Under the pieces are notes generated by a model. It saw only the letters and a program-made list of their open reading frames with translations. It did not search any database and had not been told where the DNA came from. A stretch of 64,000 nt of DNA from Parcubacteria group bacterium Gr01-1014_8 (GTDB taxonomy: Bacteria; Patescibacteriota; Minisyncoccia; Phycocordibacterales; UBA2100), in the NCBI GenBank assembly GCA_007376385.1, contig VMGC01000005.1, forward strand, positions 1 to 64,000. The letters are read 5' to 3'. Shown piece by piece: positions 1-60,729 of the stretch (positions are counted from its first letter, which is position 1; each line of letters begins with the position of its first letter). Both the position numbers and the translations under genes were made by a program.

Positions 1-185
1 GCAGAACGTCCGCATGAGTCGCTCTCGCTGCGATCTCCGCTTCAATGTATCATTGCTGCATTACCGGCACGAGAGTGCCAAATGTACTGGACCCGTACAC
101 TTGCTTGACAATAATTGCGTTAGGGTGCATAAAGCCACATAAGGGAAACCAGCGCAATTACACTATAATAAATAATTGCCTGGAC

Positions 186-1565
186 ATGAAAGTTATGCAG
201 AATGTGTGCCTTGCAGCGGGTGCGAGCGTGATATTGCTCGCAGCTGTTTTTCTTGTATCGGTAACATTGCCGCTTGCAGTTTCGTATCATGATGGAGTCT
301 TTGCATTTAATTCTACACAAATAGCGGGAGCGAGTGGAGACGGCTCAGGAGATGGAAGCGGTGATGGTTCGGGTGACGGCAGTGGAGACGGCTCGGGAGA
401 CGGTTCCGGCGATTCAAGCGGCGACAGTGGTGGGGATTCAGGAGGAGACAGCGCAGGTGATTCTGGTGGGGATAGCGGTGGGGATAGCGGTGGGTGTTGC
501 GGTGATTCCGGGGGTGATTCAGGATGTTGTGGCGATTCCAGCGGCGACAGTTCAGGTGATTCAACCGGAGATTCTACAGGTGACAGTACAGGCGGCTGTT
601 GCGACGGGGGCGGCTACGAACAGGCTTCTTACTACGGACAGGCACAATACTATTCACAGCCGCACTACTACTCACAAGGAGACTACTATTCCGAGGCCGG
701 ATATTACTCACAAGGCGACTATTATTCTGAAAGTCACTACTACTCACAAGGAGACTACTATTCCGAATCGAGCTATTACGCCGAACCTTCGTACTACTCG
801 CAAGGTCACTACTACTCACAGGGGTCGTACTGCGACGATGACAGCAGTGGGGATTCTTCAGGTGGAGATGGAGGAGACGGATGCTACTCGCAATCAAGCT
901 ACTACACCCAGCCTGGATATTATGATCAGGGAAGCTATTACAATCAGGGCAACTATTACAACCAGGGTAGCTACCACTCGCAGTCCTACTATCAGAGCTA
1001 CTATGACCGTGACGAACCGACGTGTTGGATAGAAATTGATTCAGACAACTATTGGTACGATAACTACAACTACGATTACTATTACGACCAGAATTATGGA
1101 AATCAGTCAGCGTCGCTTCGCTGGGGCTCATCCTACGCGACGTCTGCGGATCTGACAGACGTAGGCTCAGTCCCAACGAGTGGATCTCGAACAGTGTATC
1201 CAAACGGACCACGAACATACACGCTGACCGTATATGGCTCAGGAGGTTCGGACACGTGCAGCGCGTATTTCACGCCGCATCACGCTTCTCCGCCAGTAGT
1301 TCACAACGCACCGTATGTTGCTCTCACACAGATCCCATACACTGGATTTGGACTCGGACCAGTAGGGGATACATTCGCTTGGTTCTCCTTGGTGAGCGCA
1401 GCGTTCGCAGGTGCGGTCGCAGTGATGCATCTTAAAGGGCCCGGCATGGCGTTCGCCATAGGCTCGCTTATTCCGCAGATCCCTTCATTTAAACTTCCGA
1501 GTTTCGGGGCAAAAACTAAGCCTAGAAAGCGTCTCGTGTTGCCTGGGCAGAGGGAGGAGGAATAG
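186..1565 (+). CDS. Secreted/cell-surface low-complexity repeat protein. Signal peptide MKVMQNVCLAAGASVILLAAVFLVSV, (SGDG)n repeats, CC-pairs, YYSQ-type Tyr-rich decapeptide repeats, a ~90-aa conserved Cys-containing domain, then IPYTG + hydrophobic segment + basic tail (sortase-like sorting signal).
   Basis: ORF 45..1565. Internal ATG at 186 precedes a signal-peptide-like segment. Repeats read directly from the translation. C-terminal domain shared with the ORF at 1739..2437. Confidence 0.6.
   Translation: MKVMQNVCLAAGASVILLAAVFLVSVTLPLAVSYHDGVFAFNSTQIAGASGDGSGDGSGDGSGDGSGDGSGDGSGDSSGDSGGDSGGDSAGDSGGDSGGDSGGCCGDSGGDSGCCGDSSGDSSGDSTGDSTGDSTGGCCDGGGYEQASYYGQAQYYSQPHYYSQGDYYSEAGYYSQGDYYSESHYYSQGDYYSESSYYAEPSYYSQGHYYSQGSYCDDDSSGDSSGGDGGDGCYSQSSYYTQPGYYDQGSYYNQGNYYNQGSYHSQSYYQSYYDRDEPTCWIEIDSDNYWYDNYNYDYYYDQNYGNQSASLRWGSSYATSADLTDVGSVPTSGSRTVYPNGPRTYTLTVYGSGGSDTCSAYFTPHHASPPVVHNAPYVALTQIPYTGFGLGPVGDTFAWFSLVSAAFAGAVAVMHLKGPGMAFAIGSLIPQIPSFKLPSFGAKTKPRKRLVLPGQREEE
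337..600 (+). repeat. Tandem 12-nt coding repeats (ggagacggctca-like) encoding (SGDG)n / (GGDS)n
   Basis: Direct reading of nucleotide and protein sequence. Likely length-variable. Confidence 0.7.
630..840 (+). repeat. Tandem ~30-nt coding repeats encoding YYSQ-x-x-YYSE decapeptides
   Basis: QAQYYSQPHYYSQGDYYSEAGYYSQGDYYSESHYYSQGDYYSESSYY... in translation. Confidence 0.6.
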
Positions 1566-1738
1566 AGGCCCTGGAACCGGCCTTTGCCTGCTTTTCTGAG
1601 CAAAAAGGGGCTAACCTCGTCAGCACTTGCATTTTTCTAGAATCGTTGTACTGTGCTCGGAGATGTTCAAATATGTGCCACCCCTATGGTGCTATTATTA
1701 AAAGTATTACTCGCTTGGAGGGAAACCAGCGAACACGT

Positions 1739-2437
1739 ATGAATAAAGAAAAACTAGTCTTGAGAGTACGGAATCGCTCGATAGAGGCGATGATGGCCGT
1801 CGCGCTTTTTTGCGCAGTGTTTGCCGTTACTCCTTTCGCATCTGCGAGCGGCTCCGATTATTATTACGACAATAATTACTATCAGGGCTCGTACAACGAT
1901 AATTACTACAATTACGGTAATTACAATTACAACAAGCCTACGTGCTCGATGACACTCACGTATGGTACTCCACGTACGTCGCAGAATTACAATTCGATCT
2001 ACGACGAACCTGCAACCTTGAGTTGGACCACGTCGTATGCGAATTCAGCATACATTTCTCCAGACGTTGGGTCTGTGGGAATCAGCGGTTCACGCATCGT
2101 ATATCCGCGAGGAAACCAAACCTACACGATGCGCGTGAACGGCTCATGGGGCGAAGGAAATTGTCAGGTAACTGCGGTTCATCCGTACGCGTCTGTCTAC
2201 AACAGCTTCTACCATTCGCAGCCCTACGTTCAGCCGTACAATTACGGATACACGTATCCTGCAGTGCCAGCGGTATCGTATGTAGCGCTCAAACAGATGC
2301 CATACACTGGCGTCGGCTTCGGACCTATGGGTACAGCGATGTTGTGGCTCTCAATCATTCTTCTTGGCGCAGTAGGCGCAGGAGCGATCGCAACACGAAA
2401 CGAAACCCTTCGAAAGCTCGTTTTCTTGCGCGGCTAA
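1739..2437 (+). CDS. Paralog of the upstream surface protein: signal peptide (…AVTPFASA), Tyr/Asn-rich region, the same conserved Cys domain (KPTC…SWTTSYANSA…DVGSV…SGSR.VYP.G.TYT), MPYTG + TM + basic tail.
   Basis: ORF 1646..2437. Start moved to ATG 1739, which has GGAGG 8 nt upstream. Domain alignment to gene 1 done by eye. Confidence 0.6.
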   Translation: MNKEKLVLRVRNRSIEAMMAVALFCAVFAVTPFASASGSDYYYDNNYYQGSYNDNYYNYGNYNYNKPTCSMTLTYGTPRTSQNYNSIYDEPATLSWTTSYANSAYISPDVGSVGISGSRIVYPRGNQTYTMRVNGSWGEGNCQVTAVHPYASVYNSFYHSQPYVQPYNYGYTYPAVPAVSYVALKQMPYTGVGFGPMGTAMLWLSIILLGAVGAGAIATRNETLRKLVFLRG

Positions 2438-3681
2438 ACGCTTCCACGCGAGCGAATTTCTTCCCTGATGCGTGATAGGAACTCCTCGCACTTTTGTGCG
2501 GGGAGTTTTCCTTTATCGCGGCTCTCCACGGTGATTGTCTGTGAATTCACTTCTTCGTCGCCAACGACGACAAGGTAGGGAATTTTCTCGACTTTTCCGG
2601 CACGAATGCGTTTGCCCAGAGTTTCTGCGGAATCGTCCATTTCGGCGCGGATCCTTTCATTCTTCAACATCGAGACTATTTCTTTTCCGTATGCAGCTTG
2701 TTTTTCTGAAACCGGAAGGACTCTAACCTGGATTGGAGAGAGCCAGAGAGGGAACGCTCCAGCATATTTCTCTATGAGGAATGCCATGATGCGCTCGATG
2801 GCGCCGATGGATGAGCGATGCACGACGAATGCGCGCTTCTTCGAACCGTCTGAGGCGACGTAGGTCAGGTCAAATCTGTCGGGCATGCAGAAGTCATATT
2901 GAACAGTGAACGCGGTATCTTCTTTGCCGTTGGCGTTCTTCATCTGCACGTCTATCTTTGGCCCATAGAATGCGGCCTCGTCCTTGGCTTCGATGTATTT
3001 TCCATCTCTTTTTTCCAATACCTCGCGCAGGAGTTTCTCGCTTTTTTCCCACGCAGCGTCGTTCTTGTAGTACTTTACTGTATTCGAAACGTCGCCCAAA
3101 GAAAGACGATAGCGATAGTCTTTTCCGTACGAAAGCCCGAAGACGCCCGCAATGTATTCGATGAGATTGAGGGCCTGACTCACTTCTTCTGCAGCCTGTT
3201 CTTCGCTGGCGCATACGATGTGAGCGTCAGCCAAGCAGAACGTGCGAACTCTCTGCAGTCCCATCAACTCGCCGGATTGTTCGTAACGGTACAATTGCGC
3301 AAGTTCGGCAATGCGCATCGGGAGTTCTCGATAACTTCGAGGTTTCGAGAGATAGAGTTCAAAGTGGTGCGGGCAGGTCATCGGGCGGAGCATGAATTCG
3401 TCGTCGTCAGTGACTATTGGGGGGTACATTGAGTCTTTGTAGTGAGGGTAGTGCCCAGACTTTTTGTAGAGGTCTAGTTTTGCGATATCAGGGGTTTTCA
3501 CGTGCATATAGCCGCGCTTTATTTCCTCATCAATGACGAATCTCTCGAGTTCGCGGTAGATTGCCGCTCCCTTTTCGGTGAAGAGGGGAAGTCCTTTCCC
3601 TACCGTGTCCGAAAATGTGAAAAGGTCCAGCTCGCGTCCAAGCTTTTTGTGATCTCTCTCGCTCATCTCGTTGTCTGCCAT
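2434..3681 (-). CDS. thrS: Threonyl-tRNA synthetase, short form (class II catalytic core + anticodon-binding domain; no N-terminal TGS/editing domain)
   Basis: Class II aaRS motifs and ThrRS-like core (…FMLRPMTCPHH…, …HRSSIGAIERIMAFLIE…). Start taken at MADNEMSER (ATG 3681). Confidence 0.8.
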   Translation of the reverse strand: MADNEMSERDHKKLGRELDLFTFSDTVGKGLPLFTEKGAAIYRELERFVIDEEIKRGYMHVKTPDIAKLDLYKKSGHYPHYKDSMYPPIVTDDDEFMLRPMTCPHHFELYLSKPRSYRELPMRIAELAQLYRYEQSGELMGLQRVRTFCLADAHIVCASEEQAAEEVSQALNLIEYIAGVFGLSYGKDYRYRLSLGDVSNTVKYYKNDAAWEKSEKLLREVLEKRDGKYIEAKDEAAFYGPKIDVQMKNANGKEDTAFTVQYDFCMPDRFDLTYVASDGSKKRAFVVHRSSIGAIERIMAFLIEKYAGAFPLWLSPIQVRVLPVSEKQAAYGKEIVSMLKNERIRAEMDDSAETLGKRIRAGKVEKIPYLVVVGDEEVNSQTITVESRDKGKLPAQKCEEFLSRIREEIRSRGSV

Positions 3682-3689
3682 ATATAAAA

Positions 3690-3905
3690 TGTATGTAACT
3701 AAAAATGCCCAAGCGAACGTACGATTTTTATCTCGTACACTCGCTAGGGCGATCTCGGACCGCGGTTCCACCTAGCTTTCCGCCGTTTGGCGGACACTTC
3801 TTCAACGGTCAGATTAGGCTTTCGCTCGCGCTCTCGCGCATTCCCGGTTGGTAGCCGAGACAATCTCTAACTCCACCATCGTAACGCGGCTTATCTTTGC
3901 GGTCA
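3690..3905 (-). promoter_or_regulatory. Putative T-box riboswitch leader (Thr specifier ACC) upstream of thrS
   Basis: Minus-strand AGGTGGAACCGCGG at 3759..3772 matches the T-box core (A)GGGUGGNACCGCGG. Upstream AGAGA (S-turn-like) and a candidate specifier ...GGCUACCAACCGG... Stem-loops follow. Confidence 0.45.
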
Positions 3906-3907
3906 AC

Positions 3908-3932
3908 ATGACCGACATCGTATGTCGGTCAT
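3908..3932. repeat. REP palindrome ATGACCGACATCGTATGTCGGTCAT
   Basis: Perfect hairpin-forming palindrome immediately 3' of the RAYT gene. Confidence 0.7.
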
Positions 3933-4582
3933 TCCAACGTGAAAGGGCGAACCTCTGCAATCTCTATATCTTTCAAGTATCGAGCAGTGTCGTTCTTGAT
4001 AGCGCCAGGTTTTTCCTGAAAAAAATCTGTCGTCAGAACAGATGGAAAATTCTTTTCCCCGGAATAATCCAAGTAACTACTCCAGCGGTATGTATCCAAA
4101 TGTTTCAGTGCGGCTGTCGTGCTACCTATGTTGCGGTTTCGCCAGTCTCGAGCAGTTTGCAGATAATCCAGTGGATTGAGATGGACATAGTGCAGAATGT
4201 GAAGGTAATGCGCATCAGATGTAATTCGAATTTTCTTAGTTCTTCCCTGAAACAAGTAACCGTTCCGTTTATAGCGTTGATTGAAGTATTTCGCGTAGCC
4301 TACATTAAGTTTTCGAACAAAAAGCGATAATCCTTTCTCGATCTGTTCTGTAAGCAGAAGGTGATAGTGATTCTTCATCAGGCACCAGCCGTGAATATCA
4401 ACAATTCGCTTTCTCGATGACGGACCTACGAAGTCTGCCGTTTCTTTGCGTCGCCTTGTATTTTCTGCTGGTTTCGTATCGTTAAATTCGTACATGTCAT
4501 GAACGAATCTGGCATAATCGAGTGTATCCAAAAAGATATTCTTTTTCTCAACCCCTCGATTAAGTACGTGATACAGCTCCAT
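3929..4582 (-). CDS. REP-associated tyrosine transposase (RAYT; IS200-like Y1 HUH family, COG1943-like)
   Basis: N-terminal YHVLNRG...IF.D..D...F, HUH motif GWCLMKNHYHLLL, Tyr motif YAKYFNQRYKRNGYLFQGRTK. Flanked by REP palindromes. Confidence 0.8.
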   Translation of the reverse strand: MELYHVLNRGVEKKNIFLDTLDYARFVHDMYEFNDTKPAENTRRRKETADFVGPSSRKRIVDIHGWCLMKNHYHLLLTEQIEKGLSLFVRKLNVGYAKYFNQRYKRNGYLFQGRTKKIRITSDAHYLHILHYVHLNPLDYLQTARDWRNRNIGSTTAALKHLDTYRWSSYLDYSGEKNFPSVLTTDFFQEKPGAIKNDTARYLKDIEIAEVRPFTLE

Positions 4583-4590
4583 GCTGCAAG

Positions 4591-4712
4591 TATGACCGAC
4601 ATACGATGTCGGTCATAGAGGGTTATCCACTCGGGGTTACTGCTCCCAATGATTCGACTTACAATGTTCGACTTACGATGTCGGTCACTAGATGTCGGTC
4701 ACTACTACATTT
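4591..4712. repeat. REP cluster: one full REP (TATGACCGACATACGATGTCGGTCATA, 4591..4617) plus degenerate REP units (…CGACTTACGATGTCGGTCACTAGATGTCGGTCAC…)
   Basis: Direct sequence comparison with the REP at 3908. Confidence 0.7.
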
Positions 4713-5232
4713 CTAAAACCCGCATGAGCGCGTCAATACGTGTAATGTATTGTGTCTGCAAATTGATGTCTTTGAAGACGTCCGGTGTGACAAGCTCACC
4801 ACGCTGCAGCTTTTGTAAATCGTTTTGCGCTTTTGTAAGCGTCGCGATTGTCTTTTCCTTGAGTTTAGAAAAGACAGCTTCTGACATAAGTGGTCGAGCC
4901 ATGTATGTGTCAAAAGCGTGAAGTATATTATCCCCCGCTATGTCCTCATTTCCTTTCCATTTCAACAATTCTTCAATGCCTGTTTCCACAACCTTTCTTG
5001 CCAAATCTCTATCGGTGCCATGCGTGTTCTCGTCGAGCAACATCTTTTTTGCTTTTTCAGTAAGGACAAGGAGTGTTTCGCCGCCTGGGTAATCTCCGCC
5101 ATAGGAGTCTCTCGCTTTTATCATTTGTTGTGCGAGTCGCTGTGCTCTTTCGTCCCGGAATCCTTCCCAGTCGTTGCTTCCGCGTCTCTCTATCTCCTGC
5201 ATGTCGCCATTATAACGCTTTGGCGCGGTCAA
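4705..5232 (-). CDS. Hypothetical protein (175 aa). Alternative start at MQEIERRG (5202), which is preceded by TATAAT.
   Basis: ORF only; no recognisable domain. Confidence 0.35.
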   Translation of the reverse strand: MTAPKRYNGDMQEIERRGSNDWEGFRDERAQRLAQQMIKARDSYGGDYPGGETLLVLTEKAKKMLLDENTHGTDRDLARKVVETGIEELLKWKGNEDIAGDNILHAFDTYMARPLMSEAVFSKLKEKTIATLTKAQNDLQKLQRGELVTPDVFKDINLQTQYITRIDALMRVLEM

Positions 5233-8200
5233 CCACGAAACTCGTCTCGCCGTTGCGGTTTGAGAATTTGCCTTTCAGCATGACGCAGGAGCCGGGGGTA
5301 AAGAGCGAGCTGTTTTCTTGGAGCGTGCGCGGAAATGCCACTATCTCAACGCCGCCGGAAAAATCGGCAAGTTTTGCGAACACCATCTTTTCGCCGTTCT
5401 TTGTGAGGATGGACTGCACAGTCTCGAAGAATCCCGCGATGACCGTTTCGACGCCGTGGGGCATCTTTTCCCGCGCTTCTTTAAGGTTCATCTTTTGCCT
5501 CGCAAGCTTCTCCTTGTGTTTATCCAAGGGGTGGCCGGACACATAAAAACCGAGGAGTTCCTTTTCCCATGCCAATTTTTCTTCAATGCTTGCCGCCTCC
5601 TTTGAAACGAGAGGAAGTTCCCGCGAAATCGTCGCCGACTCCGCGCCGAAGAGCGAGCCCTGGTCAACGGGCGCGCTCAGGCTTTCTCGATGATACAAAA
5701 GAAGCATGTCAATATTTCCAAGGAGCGTATTCCTCTCGCCGAACTCGTCCAGTGCTCCCGACATGATGAGCGATTCAAGTGATTTCTTATTCAAATTCCT
5801 GTCGGTTATGCGAATGAGAAAATCGCCGATGGAGACATAGCGGCCATTTTTCTCGCGTTCTGAAATAATGGAATCAGAGACACCCGTGCCGAAGTTTTTT
5901 ATGGAGTAGAGGCCAAAACGTATGGTCGAATGGTCCGTTACGGTAAATGTACCTCGACTTTCATTTACCGACGGCGGCTGTACCGCGAGCCCCATGCGGG
6001 AACATTCGACAACAACTTCGGCTATCTTTTCAACATCCCCAGCGTCCGCAGTGAGTACTGCTGCCATGTAATCGACCGGGTAGTTTGCTTTCATGTAGGC
6101 TGTCTTGTACGCAAGATTTCCGTACGAAGCGGCGTGTGCTCGTCCGAATCCATACGCCGCAAACGTCTCGATCTGTTCCCACAATTTTTGTGCGGCAGTC
6201 GGGGACATGCCATTTTTTATAGCTCCCTTTGTAAGGGTTTCTTTTTGCGCCGCCATTTCTTTGGGAATCTTCTTCCCCATCGCCTTTCGTAATTTGTCGG
6301 CCTCGAGCCACGTGTAGCCCGCAAGTTTTATGGCGATCTCGAGTACATCGTCCTGGTAGACGATAACGCCGTAACCGTTTTTGAGAATTGGCTCCATTCG
6401 TGGGTCGAGATATTTGACGAGCGTTGGATTGTGCTTTCGTTCAATGTACGCGGGAATGAAGGCCATCGGACCGGGGCGGTAGAGGGCGACCATCGCGTTT
6501 ATGTCGTGTATGGTCGAGGGTTTTAGCTCCATTAAATAGTTTGTCATACCACCGCCGGCGAGTTGGAATACGCCGAGTGTTTCACCACGCGAGAGCATTG
6601 AATAGGTTGCAGGGTCATCGAGGGGAATTCTATCGAGGTTGAGGAGTGTGCCGAAACGCTCCTTGACGCGCTGTACCGAGTCGGCAAGGACAGATAGGTT
6701 TGTGAGCCCGAGAAAGTCGAATTTTAAGAGGCCTGCGTCTTCGACGGCATACATGTCGTACTGAGTGATGGTTTTGCCTCCTTTTGGGTCAAGCTGGACT
6801 GGGACGAAATCAGTGACTTTACCGGGCGCAATAACAACGCCCGCCGCATGGACGCCAACGTGCCGCGCGTTGCCCTCGACTCTCTTTGCAAGATCGATGA
6901 TCTCGCGTGCATCCGCGTCTTTTTTGTATGCCTCTTTTAGTTCGGGGATGCTCCCTAGCGAACTGTCGATGGTAACGGGGAAGCCCTGCTTCCCGAAGGG
7001 TATCATCTTTGCGATCCTGTCCCCCGTTCCGTACGAATGGCCAAGCGCTCGCGCAACATCCCGCACTGCAGCGCGGGCGAGCATTGTGCCGAATGTTCCT
7101 ATCTGTGCGACGTGGTCCTCTCCGTATTTGTTGCGCACGTAGTCGATGAGTTCATCGCGTCTGTTATCCGCGAGGTCCATATCAATATCGGGAGCAGAAG
7201 GCCGTTCCGGATTCAAAAATCTCTCGAAGGGGAGTTGATACTCGATAGGATTTACCGTTGTTATGCCGCACAGGAAGGAGACCAATGAGCCCGCTGCCGA
7301 CCCCCTCGTGTTCGTATATATACCGACGTCGCGCGCGTGACGGAGGAGATCTGCAACAACGAGGAAATACGGCGAGTATCCCTTGCTGGCTATGACGGAA
7401 AGCTCATAGTCAACTCGTTCGACAAGTGCAGAGGTTTGCGCGATCCCTCGTTCGGTGAAACCCGCATATGCGAGGGCGCGAAGCTCCGTGTCGTGCGATG
7501 AATGAGGGGGGATGGGAAAATCGGGAAATACCCATCGGCCGAGCTCGAGTTCAACATTGCATGCATCAGCGATCTTTTTGGAATTTTCCAGCGCCTCAGG
7601 GATATCAGCGAATAGTTTTTGTGCGCGTGCTTTGGTGATGAACGAGAAATCATGTGCGTTCTCTTCGAACTCGCGGTTCAGCGTACGGCCAGTGCGGATG
7701 TTGTTCACGAGTTCGCGTGCTAAGGCGTCGTCTTTCTTGAGGTAGTAGCACTCATGGGCAGCAACTGGCGCGATACCAGCCACACGGACGAGCTCGAGAA
7801 TGGATTTCATCGCCGCGTCATGCCCCTCTATTTCCGGGTGCCTGGTTATCTCGGCAAAGCAATCTGAACCGAATATCCCGCGATACCAAGCGCACGTTTG
7901 CTTCGCCTTGTCTTTAGCCCCGTCTTTCATTGCGCGGGCGTGCTCGCCCGAGTACGCGGGGAGTATCGCGATGAGCCCCCCTTTGTAGGTTTGGAGCAGT
8001 TCGTGATCTATCCGCGGACGATAGTAAAAGCCCTCAAGATGGGCGAGCGAGACCAGCTGAATAAGGCTTTTGTAGCCGGCGGGGTCCTTCGCGAGAAGAA
8101 CAAGCCGTGAATGTCTGTCATCCACGCGATGTTCTTTGTCATGTCTCGTTCTCGGAGCGACAAAAAAATCCACGCCAATAATGGGCTTGATTCCCTGTTC

Positions 8201-57729: not shown

Positions 57730-60729
57730 ATGATAACGCGGGTTACGGTACGGGCGAAGAGAGAAGATGCTCGGGCCGATGGATACCTGCGAACTCTCAA
57801 AAATAGGTTTCCCAAGGTCAAACTGAAGGGCGTGGCTGTAACGGAGGCCTATACCATTGATGCCAAACTTTTGCCGAAGGAACTTGAAAAAATCGCGAAG
57901 GGTCTCGCAAATCCGATAATAGAAGAATATGCTACAAAGGGCGTATTAGCCCCCGAAACTTTTTCTGTAGCAGTAGAGATAGGATTCTTGCCGGGTGTTA
58001 CTGATAATGTCGGACACACGGTGAGGGAAATGATAGAGGATACGACAGGACGCAAATTTAAAGACGCCGCCGCCGTCTATACTTCGAGATTTTTGTTTCT
58101 TACGGGTTCGACAGCGACTGATGAAGCCGCAAGAATGGCGCGGGAATTTTATAACCCGCTTATCCAGCGCGCGTCGGTGCTTTCGTATTCTGAGTTTAAG
58201 AAAGGTGTACCGATCATAGTACCCAAGGTTGAACTGCACAGCACAGTAAAAACGGATGAGGTGAATTTAGAAGTCGATGACGATGAGTTGATGAGAATAG
58301 GCAAGGAGGGAATTGTGAACAAGGACAACACAAGACAAGGACCGCTCGCCCTCTCTCTTCGCGCGATGCACATCATTCGCGATTATTTTCGTACGATTGG
58401 CAGGGATCCAACTGACGTTGAACTCGAGGCACTCGCGCAGACATGGTCCGAACACTGCAAACACACGATCTTCGCCGACCCCCTGGATGAGATAGAGGAG
58501 GGAATTTACCGGCGATATATCAAAGGTGCAACGCAAAAGATACGGAAAGACAAGGGTAAGAAAGATTTCTGCGTGTCGGTATTCACCGATAACTCTGGCG
58601 GGATCGCTTTCGACGATAAATATCTCGTCACACACAAAGTCGAGACGCATAATTCGCCATCAGCTCTGGATCCATTCGGCGGCGCGATAACGGATATCGT
58701 TGGTGTGAATCGCGATTGTCTTGGGTTCGGATTAGGTGCAAAACCAATTGCAAACGTGTACGGATTTTGCGTTGCTGATCCGACTGACGAGACGCCTTAT
58801 TTTCGCGACAAAGAAAAAACACAACCGCTTCTCTCCAACCGACGAATTCTTGAAGGGATCGTTCAGGGCATCAATGCAGGTGGAAACCAGAGTGGTATTC
58901 CCACTCCTCTTGGTTTTGTTGCTGTTGACCCAAGCTTTCGCTCAAAACCTCTGGTGTATGGCGGAACGGTCGGACTTATTCCAAGAAAATCTCACGGGCG
59001 AAAGCTTCACGAAAAAGAAGCGCGCGCTGGCGATTACGTAGTGATGATAGGCGGGAAGGTTGGTCTCGACGGCATACACGGTGCCACATTTTCCTCGGAG
59101 GCCTTGGCGAAGGGTTCGCCTGCGACGGCCGTGCAGATAGGCGACCCCATTACGCAAAAGAAATTCTCCGACGCTATCGTACGAGAAGCGCGGGATGCAG
59201 GTCTTTTCAACAGCATTACCGATAACGGCGCAGGCGGACTCTCGTCGTCGGTGGGTGAGATGGCGAAAGACTCCGGTGGGTTTGTCGTCGACTTGGAAAA
59301 AGTCCCACTCAAATACCCAGGACTCTCTCCGTGGCAGATATGGATATCAGAATCGCAAGAGCGCATGACGCTCTCGGTACCGAAGTCGAAATGGAATGCG
59401 CTGAAGAAAATATTTGATAGGCACGGAGTGGACGCGTGGCGAATAGGCGAGTTCACAAAATCAGGTAAAGCAATTGTGAGGTGGAGGGGGACGAAGGTGA
59501 TGGATATGGATATGAAATTCCTTCATGACGGCCGTCCCATCGAGGAGCAGAAAAGCCAGCCAGTCTTGAGGACATTCGCGGAGCCGCTTCCTGAGGAGCG
59601 GCCGAAAGATCTAGGAAAGACGCTTGTCGAAATGCTCGCTCGGCCGTCTATTGGCAGTATCTCGTTTATCTCACAACAGTACGACCACGAAGTTCTCGCG
59701 ATGGCTGTTACAAAACCATTGCAAGGACGGGGGAGAGTGAATGCGGATTCGGGAGTAATCCAGCCGTTGCCTCACTCCAATCGCGGCGTGGTGCTCGCGC
59801 ATGGATATGCACCGTGGTATTCGAACATTGATACATATGCGATGGCAGCAGCTTCCATTGATGCGGCGATTCGAAATGCGGTTGCTGCAGGCGCATCGCT
59901 CGACCATTTGGCGATACTCGACAACTTTTGCTGGTCGAGTTCGAACGAGCCGGGGCGCTTATACGAATTGAAACGTGCAGCCGAGGCTTGCTACGACATT
60001 GCGGTTGCCTACGGCACGCCATATATATCAGGCAAGGATTCAATGTTCAATGATTTTCGAGGATATACGGAGAGTGACGTGCAGATCCACATCGCGGCGC
60101 TCCCGACGCTTCTTATTTCCGCTATCGGCGTGATTCCCGACGTCCGTAAGGCCGTCACGCTCGACGCAAAACAGCCGGGCGACCTTGTCTATCTTATCGG
60201 CGATACTAATGACGAACTCGGTGCATCCGAATATTTCACAATGCTCTCTGAACGTACATCGACCTACGAAGTCGATAGGGATGACCGACATACGATGTCG
60301 AACATTGGAAGCAATGTCCCGCGCGTGGACACGACGAAAAATATGAAAACATATAAAGCTCTTGAAAAAGCGATACAGAAAGGCCTTGTCGCATCAGCAA
60401 TCTCTGTTGGGCGCGGAGGACTTGCCGTCGCGCTCGCGAAAACTGCAATAGCAGGGAAGTTGGGAATAAACGCGGACCTGACGAAGTTGCTTGGCACTGC
60501 AGGAACGGATGACTCAAGACTGTTCTCGGAAAGCCAAGGGCGTGTTCTCGTGAGCGTAAACTCAAAGCTGAAGCGGGAATTCGAGAAATCATGTCAAGGT
60601 TCAACCTTGACATTAGTGGGCGAGGTGATGAAAAGGAATTCGCTCGAAGTAGACCTTTCGGAGAAGCGGCTGAATATTCCGCTCAAAATGCTCTCGGCAG
60701 CATATCAGAAGCCGTTCAAAAATTGGTGA
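57730..60729 (+). CDS. purL: Phosphoribosylformylglycinamidine synthase subunit PurL with fused N-terminal PurS-like region
   Basis: 999 aa. AIR-synthase-related domains ×2. A separate purQ lies downstream. Confidence 0.9.
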   Translation: MITRVTVRAKREDARADGYLRTLKNRFPKVKLKGVAVTEAYTIDAKLLPKELEKIAKGLANPIIEEYATKGVLAPETFSVAVEIGFLPGVTDNVGHTVREMIEDTTGRKFKDAAAVYTSRFLFLTGSTATDEAARMAREFYNPLIQRASVLSYSEFKKGVPIIVPKVELHSTVKTDEVNLEVDDDELMRIGKEGIVNKDNTRQGPLALSLRAMHIIRDYFRTIGRDPTDVELEALAQTWSEHCKHTIFADPLDEIEEGIYRRYIKGATQKIRKDKGKKDFCVSVFTDNSGGIAFDDKYLVTHKVETHNSPSALDPFGGAITDIVGVNRDCLGFGLGAKPIANVYGFCVADPTDETPYFRDKEKTQPLLSNRRILEGIVQGINAGGNQSGIPTPLGFVAVDPSFRSKPLVYGGTVGLIPRKSHGRKLHEKEARAGDYVVMIGGKVGLDGIHGATFSSEALAKGSPATAVQIGDPITQKKFSDAIVREARDAGLFNSITDNGAGGLSSSVGEMAKDSGGFVVDLEKVPLKYPGLSPWQIWISESQERMTLSVPKSKWNALKKIFDRHGVDAWRIGEFTKSGKAIVRWRGTKVMDMDMKFLHDGRPIEEQKSQPVLRTFAEPLPEERPKDLGKTLVEMLARPSIGSISFISQQYDHEVLAMAVTKPLQGRGRVNADSGVIQPLPHSNRGVVLAHGYAPWYSNIDTYAMAAASIDAAIRNAVAAGASLDHLAILDNFCWSSSNEPGRLYELKRAAEACYDIAVAYGTPYISGKDSMFNDFRGYTESDVQIHIAALPTLLISAIGVIPDVRKAVTLDAKQPGDLVYLIGDTNDELGASEYFTMLSERTSTYEVDRDDRHTMSNIGSNVPRVDTTKNMKTYKALEKAIQKGLVASAISVGRGGLAVALAKTAIAGKLGINADLTKLLGTAGTDDSRLFSESQGRVLVSVNSKLKREFEKSCQGSTLTLVGEVMKRNSLEVDLSEKRLNIPLKMLSAAYQKPFKNW
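60281..60300. repeat. REP-derived sequence ATGACCGACATACGATGTCG embedded in-frame in purL (encodes …DRDDRHTMS…)
   Basis: 19/23 identity to the REPs flanking the RAYT gene; lies in a segment that looks like an insertion relative to the PurL core. Confidence 0.5.

What the first reader, a model, noticed from the sequence alone, without database searches (positions are those of the whole stretch)
3908..4712. RAYT (IS200-like HUH tyrosine transposase) with flanking REP palindromes inserted between thrS leader and dnaE neighbourhood
The 217-aa protein has the COG1943/RAYT signature (YHV.NRG, HYHLLL HUH, Y-motif). The perfect palindrome TGACCGACAT(C/A)GTATGTCGGTCA lies 3' of the gene (3908..3932). 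A second lies 5' (4591..4617), followed by two or three degenerate copies up to 4712. This is a classic REP/RAYT arrangement, but REP/RAYT systems are best known from Proteobacteria. Finding one here, if the host is CPR-like, is worth noting. It also provides the source for the REP found in purL.
Basis: partly seen in the sequence, partly recalled or inferred. Interest (0 to 1): 0.5.

Follow-up and report, generated by a model that had tools for sequence, protein, structure and literature searches.

The report
RAYT-like nuclease with its own hairpins
A candidate-phyla-radiation (CPR) bacterium carries a domesticated single-strand-DNA nuclease gene bracketed by two perfect copies of a short DNA hairpin, one example of a large, apparently undescribed family whose hairpins also sit in frame inside essential genes.

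Summary
ORF 3929-4582 (-) encodes an intact 217-aa HUH/Tyr (Y1) nuclease. Perfect hairpins ATGACCGACAT-ACG/CGT-ATGTCGGTCAT lie 10 nt before its ATG and across its TGA stop.

The host is Parcubacteria group bacterium Gr01-1014_8, so it is CPR. The predicted fold is closest to the E. coli REP-associated tyrosine transposase. There is no tnpB, no second copy in the window, and a relative shares the gene order dnaE-Y1-thrS.

It is not a classic REP/RAYT unit:
- The NCBIfam RAYT model is below cut-off.
- The hairpin has no GTAG guide.
- The protein motifs match TnpAY1 subclass 2.1, which was reported to lack REPs, but the HTH tail is missing.

In 84 related Patescibacteria genes, 79 have a 5' hairpin, 76 a 3' hairpin, and 73 a third copy in frame at aa 45-66. 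Stems are gene-specific and the ACG loop is invariant. The internal copy has decayed in this window.

Solitary hairpins outnumber gene-linked ones in a metagenome sample. About two thirds lie in frame inside genes such as purL, dnaE, uvrA and aaRS genes. The window's purL carries such an insertion, absent from orthologues.

Best reading: a vertically inherited RAYT-like enzyme that acts on and spreads its cognate hairpin. This is a new variant of a known kind.

The parts
3929..4582 (-). Gene for a 217-aa Y1 HUH single-strand-DNA nuclease (RAYT-like). HUH motif is H72-Y73-H74. Catalytic Tyr is Y132 in HYVHLNP. Also has LFQGR and WSSY motifs.
   Evidence: ORF. Pfam PF01797 29.8 bits against cut-off 23. 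Invariant residues in 56 homologues. AlphaFold model pLDDT 72.6. Foldseek top hit 4er8_A, then ISDra2 and IS608 TnpA.
3908..3932 (.). 3' cognate hairpin ATGACCGACAT-CGT-ATGTCGGTCAT (loop reads ACG on the coding strand). It holds the TGA stop codon.
   Evidence: ssDNA fold -11.1 and -11.4 kcal/mol, z -5.8 and -5.1. The same position relative to the stop (loop centre +9) occurs in 19 related genes.
4591..4617 (.). 5' cognate hairpin TATGACCGACAT-ACG-ATGTCGGTCATA (loop reads CGT on the coding strand); it ends 8 nt upstream of the ATG (10 nt from the 23-nt core).
   Evidence: ssDNA fold -11.8 kcal/mol, z -7.4. 79 of 84 related genes have a hairpin here, median loop centre -27.
4417..4441 (.). Decayed relic of the internal in-frame hairpin (ATGACGGACCT-ACG-AAGTCTGCCGT, 6 of 10 pairs). 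It encodes the linker peptide TADFVGPSS (aa 48-56).
   Evidence: Read. It does not fold better than shuffles. The syntenic relative L007 has ATGACCGACTT-CGT-AAGTCCGTCAT here, and 73 of 84 related genes have a hairpin at aa 45-66. The linker has pLDDT below 50.
4665..4687 (+). Degenerate hairpin copy TGTTCGACTT-ACG-ATGTCGGTCA (3 mismatches to the cognate).
   Evidence: No stable fold.
4677..4704 (+). Tandem duplication of the 14-nt right arm (GATGTCGGTCACTA, twice).
60281..60305 (+). Dispersed cognate hairpin ATGACCGACAT-ACG-ATGTCGAACAT (2 mismatches), in frame inside purL (codon offset 1, encoding DDRHTMSNI).
   Evidence: It is part of a 10-16-aa insertion absent from T. thermophilus PurL and from 14 Kaiserbacteria-type PurL sequences.
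60258..60276 (+). Second hairpin of another stem type (ATCGACCT-ACG-AAGTCGAT, 1 mismatch), in tandem with the previous one inside purL.
   Evidence: The stem resembles the cognate hairpins of other paralogues (L041, L050).

Best explanation
The locus is a REPtron-like unit. It consists of a single-copy, vertically inherited gene for a Y1 HUH single-strand-DNA endonuclease/strand-transferase of the RAYT kind (TnpAY1 class 2), bracketed by two inverted perfect copies of its own cognate hairpin (11-12 bp stem, 3-nt ACG/CGT loop).

Shown:
- The protein has the HUH and Y...NP catalytic motifs and a Y1-transposase fold.
- The hairpins are real and form stable ssDNA structures.
- The same plan recurs in about 80 related Patescibacteria genes: a hairpin before the ATG, a hairpin at the stop, and usually a third in-frame hairpin in a disordered linker.
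- Across these genes the loop and stem top are invariant, and the mid-stem is gene-specific and identical among the copies belonging to one gene.
- Hairpins of this family also occur alone, often in frame inside housekeeping genes. One such insertion is in this window's purL.

Inferred, by analogy with E. coli TnpA-REP and IS608/ISDra2 TnpA:
- The enzyme binds the hairpin when the DNA is single-stranded (at the replication fork or during repair).
- It cleaves and rejoins through Tyr132 with the HUH-bound metal.
- It thereby copies or moves hairpin units and keeps the copies around its own gene homogeneous.
- The gene itself no longer transposes.

The cleavage site is unknown. No sequence outside the hairpin is conserved, so recognition, and possibly cleavage, must lie within the hairpin. 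The invariant part is the TTACGAA top plus the ATG/CAT foot.
For: Protein:
- PF01797 is above cut-off.
- H72, Y73, H74, Y132, N136 and P137 are invariant in 56 homologues.
- The best fold match is 4er8_A, the REP-associated tyrosine transposase bound to a REP hairpin, at E 1.4e-4 and probability 1.0.

Hairpins in the window:
- 0.00 matches expected by chance.
- Fold z-scores of -5 to -7.

Family architecture:
- 250 ACG/CGT-loop hairpins in 1.26 Mb against about 7 in shuffles; 212 of them lie at the gene.
- 79, 73 and 76 of 84 genes have the 5', internal and 3' hairpin respectively.
- Arms within one gene differ by 0.2-0.6 of 9 nt, against 3.5 between genes; there are 42 distinct arms in 63 genes.
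- 9 of 11 stem pairs show changes on both sides.

Dispersal:
- In a metagenome scan, 124 of 157 matches are perfect palindromes at the free NNN positions.
- 112 of the 157 are not next to a Y1 gene, and 60 of those are clearly interior to their locus.
- Nine checked hosts are purL, dnaE, pheT, an aaRS gene, thrC, purB, uvrA and two AMP-binding enzyme genes.
- The purL insertion is absent from orthologues.

Domestication:
- No paralogue in the window.
- Paralogues in related genomes are 54-77% identical to the window protein, each with its own stem.
- The gene order rnhB-dnaE-Y1-thrS is shared with L007.
- There is no room for tnpB between the hairpins.

DNA-level rather than RNA-level role: the loop orientation of the internal copy is about 50:50 relative to the coding strand, 36 CGT against 30 ACG.
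Against: - No biochemistry exists for any member; binding and cleavage are inferred.
- The NCBIfam RAYT model is far below its cut-off, and a PDB sequence-profile search finds no Y1 transposase.
- The hairpin lacks the GT[AG]G guide that defines canonical REPs.
- The nearest described protein subclass (2.1) was reported to have no REPs.
- In about 69.5 kb of the source contig, only one dispersed site is seen besides the gene-linked copies.
- Proteins sharing a stem are only slightly more alike than those that do not, 0.69 against 0.63 identity. So it is not shown that the protein discriminates the variable stem positions.
- The hairpin sets were collected by a palindrome scan, so the 'percent paired' figure is partly circular.
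Confidence: 0.7

Rival explanations
1. It is a minimal autonomous IS200-type insertion sequence. The Y1 gene is the transposase, and the two hairpins are its left and right ends, so the whole 720-bp unit moves.
For: The Y1 fold also matches the IS608 and ISDra2 transposases. Hairpins sit immediately at both gene ends. Related genes lie in different neighbourhoods, for example between a methyltransferase gene and gyrA in L003. In L080 dnaE and thrS are adjacent without the gene between them. Several copies occur per genome.
Against: There is no second copy in the window. Copies within one genome are only 54-77% identical to the window protein, and each has a different stem. Gene order is kept with L007 while DnaE has diverged to 83% identity. 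The Y motif is Y...NP, not the Y...Q of IS200. Both ends carry the same perfect hairpin, whereas IS200 ends are unlike and imperfect. Most hairpins in metagenomes are solitary, without a gene.
Confidence: 0.1
2. The hairpins are cis-regulatory or structural elements such as operators, RNA stability elements or terminators. The Y1 protein is a hairpin-binding regulator of its own gene, not an enzyme that spreads them.
For: The three hairpins keep fixed positions relative to the gene across the family: median -27 from the ATG, aa 45-66, and +9 at the stop. The 3' hairpin lies just before a promoter-like site for thrS.
Against: The catalytic HUH and Tyr residues are invariant. There is no T-run after the hairpins. 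Loop orientation relative to transcription is about 50:50 for the internal copy and mixed for the flanks, which an RNA element would not tolerate. Identical hairpins sit in frame inside unrelated housekeeping genes and are insertions relative to orthologues.
Confidence: 0.1
3. The hairpins spread and are homogenised by host processes alone, such as template switching at quasi-palindromes or gene conversion. Their association with the Y1 gene arises only because the gene is a preferred target.
For: Loop flips between ACG and CGT need three base changes, so they must arise by copying rather than point mutation. Same-stem proteins are barely more similar than other pairs.
Against: 212 of 250 hairpins in the gene-centred loci lie at the gene, at three fixed positions. 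Paralogues in one genome keep different stems. The nearest solved structure is a nuclease bound to exactly this kind of hairpin.
Confidence: 0.05

Closest known systems
E. coli TnpA-REP / RAYT with REP sequences (REPtron; TnpAY1 subclass 2.2, Bertels group 2; PDB 4er8)
   Same: Y1 HUH fold, best structural match. Y...NP tyrosine motif. Low-copy gene bracketed by inverted copies of a cognate hairpin. Hairpins also dispersed elsewhere. Several diverged paralogues per genome, each with its own hairpin. Signs of vertical inheritance.
   Different: 17% identity to 4er8. Below the NF047646 cut-off. No GT[AG]G guide and no conserved flank. 3-nt invariant ACG loop with a perfect 11-12-bp stem. Low copy number. 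Dispersed copies are mostly inside genes. A third in-frame copy lies inside the gene.
TnpAY1 subclass 2.1 (Quentin, Siguier, Chandler, Fichant 2018, PMC6006769) = RAYT group 1 (Bertels 2017, PMC5581495), probably the TIRYTs of Di Nocera 2013 (PMC3733652)
   Same: Key motifs NH[YF]H, FQ, Y[IV]HLNP and the C-terminal 'SS' (WSSY). 30% identity over aa 3-205 to a Legionella member.
   Different: Lacks the C-terminal Bac_DnaA_C/HTH_23-like domain that the Legionella protein has. Has a ~25-aa insertion at the hairpin-coded linker and an 18-aa insertion at aa 148-165. Is flanked by hairpins, whereas subclass 2.1 was reported to have none.
TnpAY1 subclass 2.4 (Cyanobacteria/Bacteroidetes) with REPs inserted in frame in the tnpA-REP gene
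   Same: A cognate hairpin inside the nuclease gene that keeps the reading frame. 'Double-foot' symmetry of the hairpin.
   Different: [quoted passage not shown] Here it lies before the HuH motif, at one fixed place in 73 of 84 genes, and its stem is identical to the flanking copies.
Rickettsia palindromic elements and other intragenic REPs (Di Nocera 2013)
   Same: Short palindromic repeats carried in frame inside essential genes, including dnaE and aaRS genes, in a small, gene-dense genome.
   Different: Different sequence and size (25 nt, 8-9 codons). Here the elements are linked to a recognisable cognate nuclease gene.
IS200/IS605 TnpA (IS608, ISDra2)
   Same: Same fold and same HUH/Tyr chemistry acting on ssDNA hairpins.
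   Different: Y...NP rather than Y...Q. No tnpB. No identical copies. Both ends carry the same hairpin. About 75 extra C-terminal residues.

Membership tests
RAYT / TnpA-REP with REPs (REPtron) | Y1 HUH catalytic core: HuH motif plus Tyr in Y...NP | tested here: met
   NHYHLLL (H72, H74) and HYVHLNP (Y132, N136, P137), invariant in 56 homologues. PF01797 29.8 bits against cut-off 23. Fold match to 4er8, 2xo6 and 2a6m.
RAYT / TnpA-REP with REPs (REPtron) | Reaches the curated RAYT model (NCBIfam NF047646, equivalog) | tested here: not met
   39.9 bits against a cut-off of 80.
RAYT / TnpA-REP with REPs (REPtron) | Gene bracketed by copies of a cognate palindrome, typically inverted | tested here: met
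   3908-3932 and 4591-4617 are perfect and are reverse complements of each other. In the family, 79 of 84 genes have a 5' hairpin and 76 of 84 a 3' hairpin; CGT...ACG is the commonest orientation, 30 of 63.
RAYT / TnpA-REP with REPs (REPtron) | REP carries a 5' GT[AG]G guide tetranucleotide at the hairpin foot | tested here: not met
   Logos of 203 gene-linked and 97 solitary hairpins show no information outside the hairpin. The foot is ATG/CAT.
RAYT / TnpA-REP with REPs (REPtron) | The same palindrome is dispersed in many, mainly extragenic, copies in the genome | tested here: inconclusive
   Source genome: only one dispersed site (purL) in about 69.5 kb; the whole genome was not available. 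Family level: solitary copies outnumber gene-linked ones, 112 against 45 matches. However, 68% lie in open frames of at least 150 aa, against 85% for random positions.
RAYT / TnpA-REP with REPs (REPtron) | Single or low copy, diverged paralogues, vertical inheritance | tested here: met
   No paralogue in the window. Paralogues in other genomes are 54-77% identical to the window protein. Gene order is shared with L007.
RAYT / TnpA-REP with REPs (REPtron) | Protein binds and cleaves its REP as single-stranded DNA | not testable with these tools
   Needs purified protein and oligonucleotides.
TnpAY1 subclass 2.1 / RAYT group 1 / TIRYT | Motifs NH[YF]H, FQ, Y[IV]HLNP and a C-terminal 'SS' | tested here: met
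   NHYH, LFQGR, YVHLNP and WSSY against Table 1 of PMC6006769. 30% identity to a Legionella member.
TnpAY1 subclass 2.1 / RAYT group 1 / TIRYT | C-terminal helix-turn-helix domain (Bac_DnaA_C, HTH_23 or HTH_28-like) | tested here: not met
   No Pfam hit beyond Y1_Tnp, and the protein ends at aa 217. The Legionella homologue does show Bac_DnaA_C/HTH hits at aa 238-277.
TnpAY1 subclass 2.1 / RAYT group 1 / TIRYT | No REP-like hairpins next to the gene (or GGGGWSAS-type terminal inverted repeats) | tested here: not met
   Perfect hairpins lie at both ends. No GGGGWSAS motif was seen in the flanks read.
IS200/IS605 insertion sequence | Y...Q tyrosine motif, frequent tnpB partner, unlike left and right end hairpins, several near-identical copies | tested here: not met
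   The Y motif is Y...NP. The neighbours are thrS, an unknown 175-aa ORF and dnaE. Both ends carry identical hairpins. No second copy in the window.
Intragenic palindromic repeats (RPE-like) | Repeat inserted in frame in a protein-coding gene, absent from orthologues | tested here: met
   purL 60258-60305 is a 10-16-aa insertion relative to 3viu and to 14 close PurL sequences. Other hosts were confirmed by Pfam.

The most novel reading that the evidence does not exclude
The third, in-frame hairpin would be a working part of the system rather than a tolerated insertion. The nuclease's disordered linker (aa ~48-58) is a literal translation of its own DNA target. One copying event that changes the hairpin stem would therefore also change the protein segment that reads it, giving self-encoded specificity. 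Alternatively, the enzyme could cut or bind inside its own gene to switch itself off.

Either version would explain two observations: the three copies of one gene stay identical while 42 different stems exist, and the rest of the protein hardly tracks the stem type.
Probability: 0.12. Interest if true: 0.85.

Novelty: new variant of a known kind. Interest (0 to 1): 0.6.

Why it matters
What RAYTs do for their hosts is still an open question, and almost all knowledge comes from Proteobacteria with GTAG-type REPs.

This finding offers a compact, strongly conserved RAYT-like family in Patescibacteria. About 60% protein identity is kept across many lineages, and genomes carry up to four diverged paralogues. 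These are organisms with minimal, gene-dense genomes.

The target is a 25-nt hairpin with an invariant loop and a short variable 'address'. That gives a natural table of enzyme-target pairs for working out specificity.

The hairpins are carried in frame inside essential genes such as purL, dnaE, uvrA and aaRS genes. Small mobile palindromes therefore shape protein sequences in CPR bacteria, as RPEs do in Rickettsia. This also matters for annotation and for alignment of marker genes from these lineages.

Tried and rejected
- A PDB sequence-profile search with the family alignment found no transposase. Only the fold comparison did.
- Rfam on 3400-5400 gave only a sub-threshold T-box (29.5 bits against 93) and a chance CRISPR-DR hit on the 5' hairpin. 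The hairpins are not a known RNA family.
- The promoter/terminator scan gave no terminator at the hairpins and no counts above shuffles.
- I tested whether proteins sharing a stem type are closer relatives. The effect is weak, 0.69 against 0.63 identity, so co-diversification of core protein and stem is not shown.
- I looked for conserved target or guide sequence next to gene-linked and solitary hairpins and found none.
- More distant CPR paralogues (35-39% identity; L007, L039, L085) have flanking hairpins with other loops (TTA, TAG, TCG) but no internal copy. The internal hairpin is therefore specific to the ACG-loop family.
- tblastn against plasmids and phages found only relatives at 34% identity or less. 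There is no sign of a plasmid- or phage-borne source.
- Five literature searches for RAYT, REP or IS200 together with Patescibacteria, Parcubacteria, Kaiserbacteria or CPR found nothing on this family. The single real hit only mentions KEGG K07491 in an archaeon.
- A genome-wide count in the source genome was not possible.
Full report
**Observation**

The window has an ORF at 3929..4582 on the - strand (217 aa, ATG start, TGA stop). A perfect palindrome, ATGACCGACAT-CGT-ATGTCGGTCAT, lies at 3908..3932 and contains the stop codon. A second, TATGACCGACAT-ACG-ATGTCGGTCATA, lies at 4591..4617 and ends 8 nt upstream of the ATG (10 nt from the 23-nt core). The two differ only in the 3-nt loop, so they are reverse complements of each other.

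The 23-mer with up to three mismatches has six matches in 64 kb, against none in 100 shuffles. As single-stranded DNA the two perfect copies fold at -11 to -12 kcal/mol, z -5 to -7.

The 'degenerate copies' up to 4712 are one decayed hairpin (4665..4687) and a 14-nt tandem duplication of its right arm (4677..4704). Neither folds better than shuffled sequence. One more copy with 2 mismatches lies at 60281..60305 inside purL, preceded by a hairpin of another stem type at 60258..60276.

**The protein**

- Pfam Y1_Tnp (PF01797) is matched above its cut-off, 29.8 against 23 bits.
- The NCBIfam model for REP-associated tyrosine transposases is matched well below its cut-off, 39.9 against 80 bits.
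- In an alignment of 56 homologues, the HUH histidines (H72, H74), Y132, N136 and P137 (HYVHLNP), LFQGR and WSSY are invariant or nearly so.
- An AlphaFold model (pLDDT 72.6) has the strand-helix order of Y1 transposases, with a low-confidence linker at aa 44-54.
- Its best match among solved structures is 4er8, the E. coli REP-associated tyrosine transposase bound to a REP hairpin. The ISDra2 and IS608 transposases follow.
- A sequence-profile search of the PDB found none of these, so the family is remote in sequence.

**Organism and family**

The exact protein is on record as 'transposase' of Parcubacteria group bacterium Gr01-1014_8, near the end of a 189,832-bp contig, so the host is indeed CPR.

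The word-indexed search gave 2661 homologues; the best 120 are 58-78% identical. The full HMMER scan of 1.84 billion cluster representatives gave 151 clusters at E <= 1e-30 and 16,960 at E <= 1e-3. A scan of one genome per species returned 182 relatives. The best 80 are all from Patescibacteria (Kaiserbacteria, Adlerbacteria, Paceibacterota and similar), and several genomes carry two to four diverged copies. Plasmids and phages hold only relatives at 34% identity or less.

**Anatomy across the family**

I located the gene in 82 non-redundant loci (1.26 Mb) and scanned them for hairpins with a 3-nt ACG/CGT loop.
- 250 were found, against about 7 in shuffled sequence. 212 of them lie within 150 nt of, or inside, the Y1 gene.
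- Of 84 genes, 79 have a hairpin before the ATG (median loop centre -27) and 76 have one at or just after the stop. The most frequent position for the latter is +9, where the TGA sits in the hairpin foot, as in the window.
- 73 have a third hairpin inside the gene at aa 45-66, always in frame.
- The consensus is aATG-NN-gGAcTT-ACG-AAgTCc-NN-CATt. The loop and closing pairs are invariant and the mid-stem is variable. There is no information at all outside the hairpin, so no GTAG guide.
- Within one gene the 9-nt arms differ by 0.2-0.6 positions; between genes they differ by 3.5. There are 42 distinct arms among 63 genes.
- On an alignment of 55 distinct hairpins, 9 of 11 pairs show changes on both sides. 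The paired fraction there is partly circular, because the hairpins were found by a palindrome scan.
- On the coding strand the loop is mostly CGT upstream (50 against 23) and ACG downstream (49 against 22), but about even for the internal copy (36 against 30). An RNA element would be expected to keep one orientation, so this points to a DNA-level role.
- ACG and CGT differ at all three bases. Orientation changes must therefore come from copying, not point mutation.

In the window, the two flanking copies are perfect and the internal one has decayed. At 4417..4441, ATGACGGACCT-ACG-AAGTCTGCCGT encodes TADFVGPSS. The syntenic relative L007 still has ATGACCGACTT-CGT-AAGTCCGTCAT there.

**Dispersal**

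Within the gene-centred loci about 30 further family-like hairpins lie away from the genes. Many are inside long open frames. One in genome CAYJVW01 is the window-type hairpin near another paralogue (L069).

- Of 157 matches, 124 are perfect palindromes at the six free positions, against 1/64 expected by chance.
- 45 lie at a Y1 homologue and 112 do not. Of the 112, 60 are at least 900 nt from both locus ends.
- Of those 60, 68% lie in open frames of at least 150 aa, against 85% for random positions in the same loci.
- The codon offset is 1 (31 cases) or 0 (10 cases) and never 2, which would often create TGA.
- Most are singletons; among pairs, inverted ones prevail, 14 against 4.
- Nine host ORFs checked with Pfam are PurL, DnaE, PheT, a class I aaRS, threonine synthase, adenylosuccinate lyase, UvrA and two AMP-binding enzymes.

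**purL in the window**

The two hairpins encode part of ...SERTSTYEVDRDDRHTMSNIGS.... This stretch is a 15-aa gap in the alignment with Thermus thermophilus PurL (3viu). It is a 10-16-aa insertion relative to 14 PurL sequences that are 52-70% identical. Another CPR PurL (L091) carries a different hairpin of the family in the same loop.

**Inheritance**

- There is no second copy in the window, and no further hairpin in the 5.5 kb of contig beyond the window start.
- The order rnhB-dnaE-Y1-thrS is shared with L007. Its DnaE is 83% identical and its Y1 protein 77% identical, and it has the same hairpin stem.
- In L080 dnaE and thrS are adjacent with the Y1 gene elsewhere. The unit therefore entered this position in an ancestor of the window/L007 lineage and has since been inherited vertically.
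- The hairpins abut the gene, so the bounded unit holds no tnpB. The neighbours are thrS, a 175-aa ORF without Pfam match, and dnaE.

**Mechanism**

Shown:
- An intact Y1 HUH enzyme.
- Stable cognate hairpins at fixed positions.
- Gene-specific stems kept identical among the copies of one gene.
- Solitary copies that are insertions in other genes.

Inferred from the established chemistry of TnpA-REP and IS608/ISDra2 TnpA:
- The enzyme binds the hairpin on single-stranded DNA.
- It cuts and rejoins via Tyr132.
- It thereby spreads hairpins and homogenises those at its own gene.

Because nothing outside the hairpin is conserved, recognition, and perhaps cleavage, must use the invariant TTACGAA top and the ATG/CAT foot. 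The cleavage site is unknown. Proteins sharing a stem are only slightly more alike than others, 0.69 against 0.63 identity outside the linker. So it remains open whether the conserved core reads the variable stem positions at all.

**Comparison with known systems**

In the classification of Quentin et al. 2018 (PMC6006769), the motifs NHYH, FQ, Y[IV]HLNP and 'SS' are those of subclass 2.1 (Bertels group 1). That subclass is described as having a C-terminal HTH domain and no REPs.

A Legionella plasmid member (287 aa) aligns at 30% identity and does carry Bac_DnaA_C/HTH-like hits. Relative to it, the window protein differs in three ways:
- It lacks that tail.
- It has an 18-aa insertion at aa 148-165.
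- It has a ~25-aa insertion exactly at the hairpin-coded linker.

In-frame REPs inside the nuclease gene were reported only for subclass 2.4, at another place in the protein. Intragenic REPs and RPEs are known.

The system therefore works like a REP/RAYT unit but fails three defining features of the canonical family: the curated model, the GTAG guide, and extragenic abundance. It also fails two features of subclass 2.1. More distant CPR paralogues have flanking hairpins with other loops and no internal copy.

**Novelty and limits**

No paper in the searchable library describes RAYT/REP systems in Parcubacteria, Kaiserbacteria or Patescibacteria; that library is incomplete. I rate the finding a new variant of a known kind.

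Limits:
- No whole-genome count for the source organism.
- 'Solitary' depends on tblastn detection at E <= 1e-5 and on contig ends.
- Coding status was inferred from open frames and confirmed by Pfam for only nine cases.
- The structure model is of moderate confidence.
- There is no experiment on any member.

Noticed in passing
window 3742-3975 (-): Weak T-box leader match (29.5 bits, gathering score 93, E 3e-4) upstream of thrS. As aligned it runs over the 3' hairpin and the last codons of the Y1 gene. A promoter-like TTGACC-17-TACGAT lies at 3906-3878 (-), directly after the hairpin.
   Followed up: partly
window 4705-5232 (-): A 175-aa ORF between dnaE and the Y1 gene. It has no Pfam match and no counterpart in the syntenic relative L007, where dnaE and the Y1 gene are 63 nt apart. 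The decayed hairpin copies lie just downstream of it. The source annotation calls a 165-aa gene here.
   Followed up: partly
L091 3650-6604 (-), aa ~843: Another CPR PurL carries a different hairpin of the family (ATGAACGACTT type, peptide ERLTKSFM) in the same surface loop as the window's purL insertion. This is either a permissive loop or a hot spot.
   Followed up: partly
L202 7259-10549 (-), aa ~850: A CPR dnaE with two or three adjacent hairpins in frame (NDFVSRSSDERLTKSNI), just before the conserved FGLxSIKNFG segment.
   Followed up: partly
L007 2699-3343, L039 18690-19319, L085 11256-11882: A second, more distant Y1 subfamily in the same CPR genomes (35-39% identity). It is flanked by palindromes with other loops (TTA, TAG, TCG) and has no internal copy. 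L085 also has an array of half-sites upstream.
   Followed up: partly
L208 14475-15515 (source contig, about 0-1 kb beyond window position 1): An rve-type integrase gene (HTH_32, rve), meaning an ordinary DDE insertion sequence, lies just beyond the window start, 5' of window position 1, on the same contig.
   Followed up: no
window 45-1565 (+) and 1646-2437 (+): Two ORFs with long low-complexity runs (GDGS/GDSG repeats, then YYSQ-type repeats) and a hydrophobic C-terminal segment. They look like repetitive secreted or surface proteins.
   Followed up: no
L003 7129-10812 (-): In a related genome the Y1 gene lies next to a gyrA that carries an intein (Intein_splicing hit between two DNA_topoisoIV hits).
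   Followed up: no
L031 7039-7090, L045 227-274, L080 86-129: Upstream of some Y1 genes, two inverted hairpins abut to form one long (19-23 bp stem) REPIN-like palindrome.
   Followed up: no
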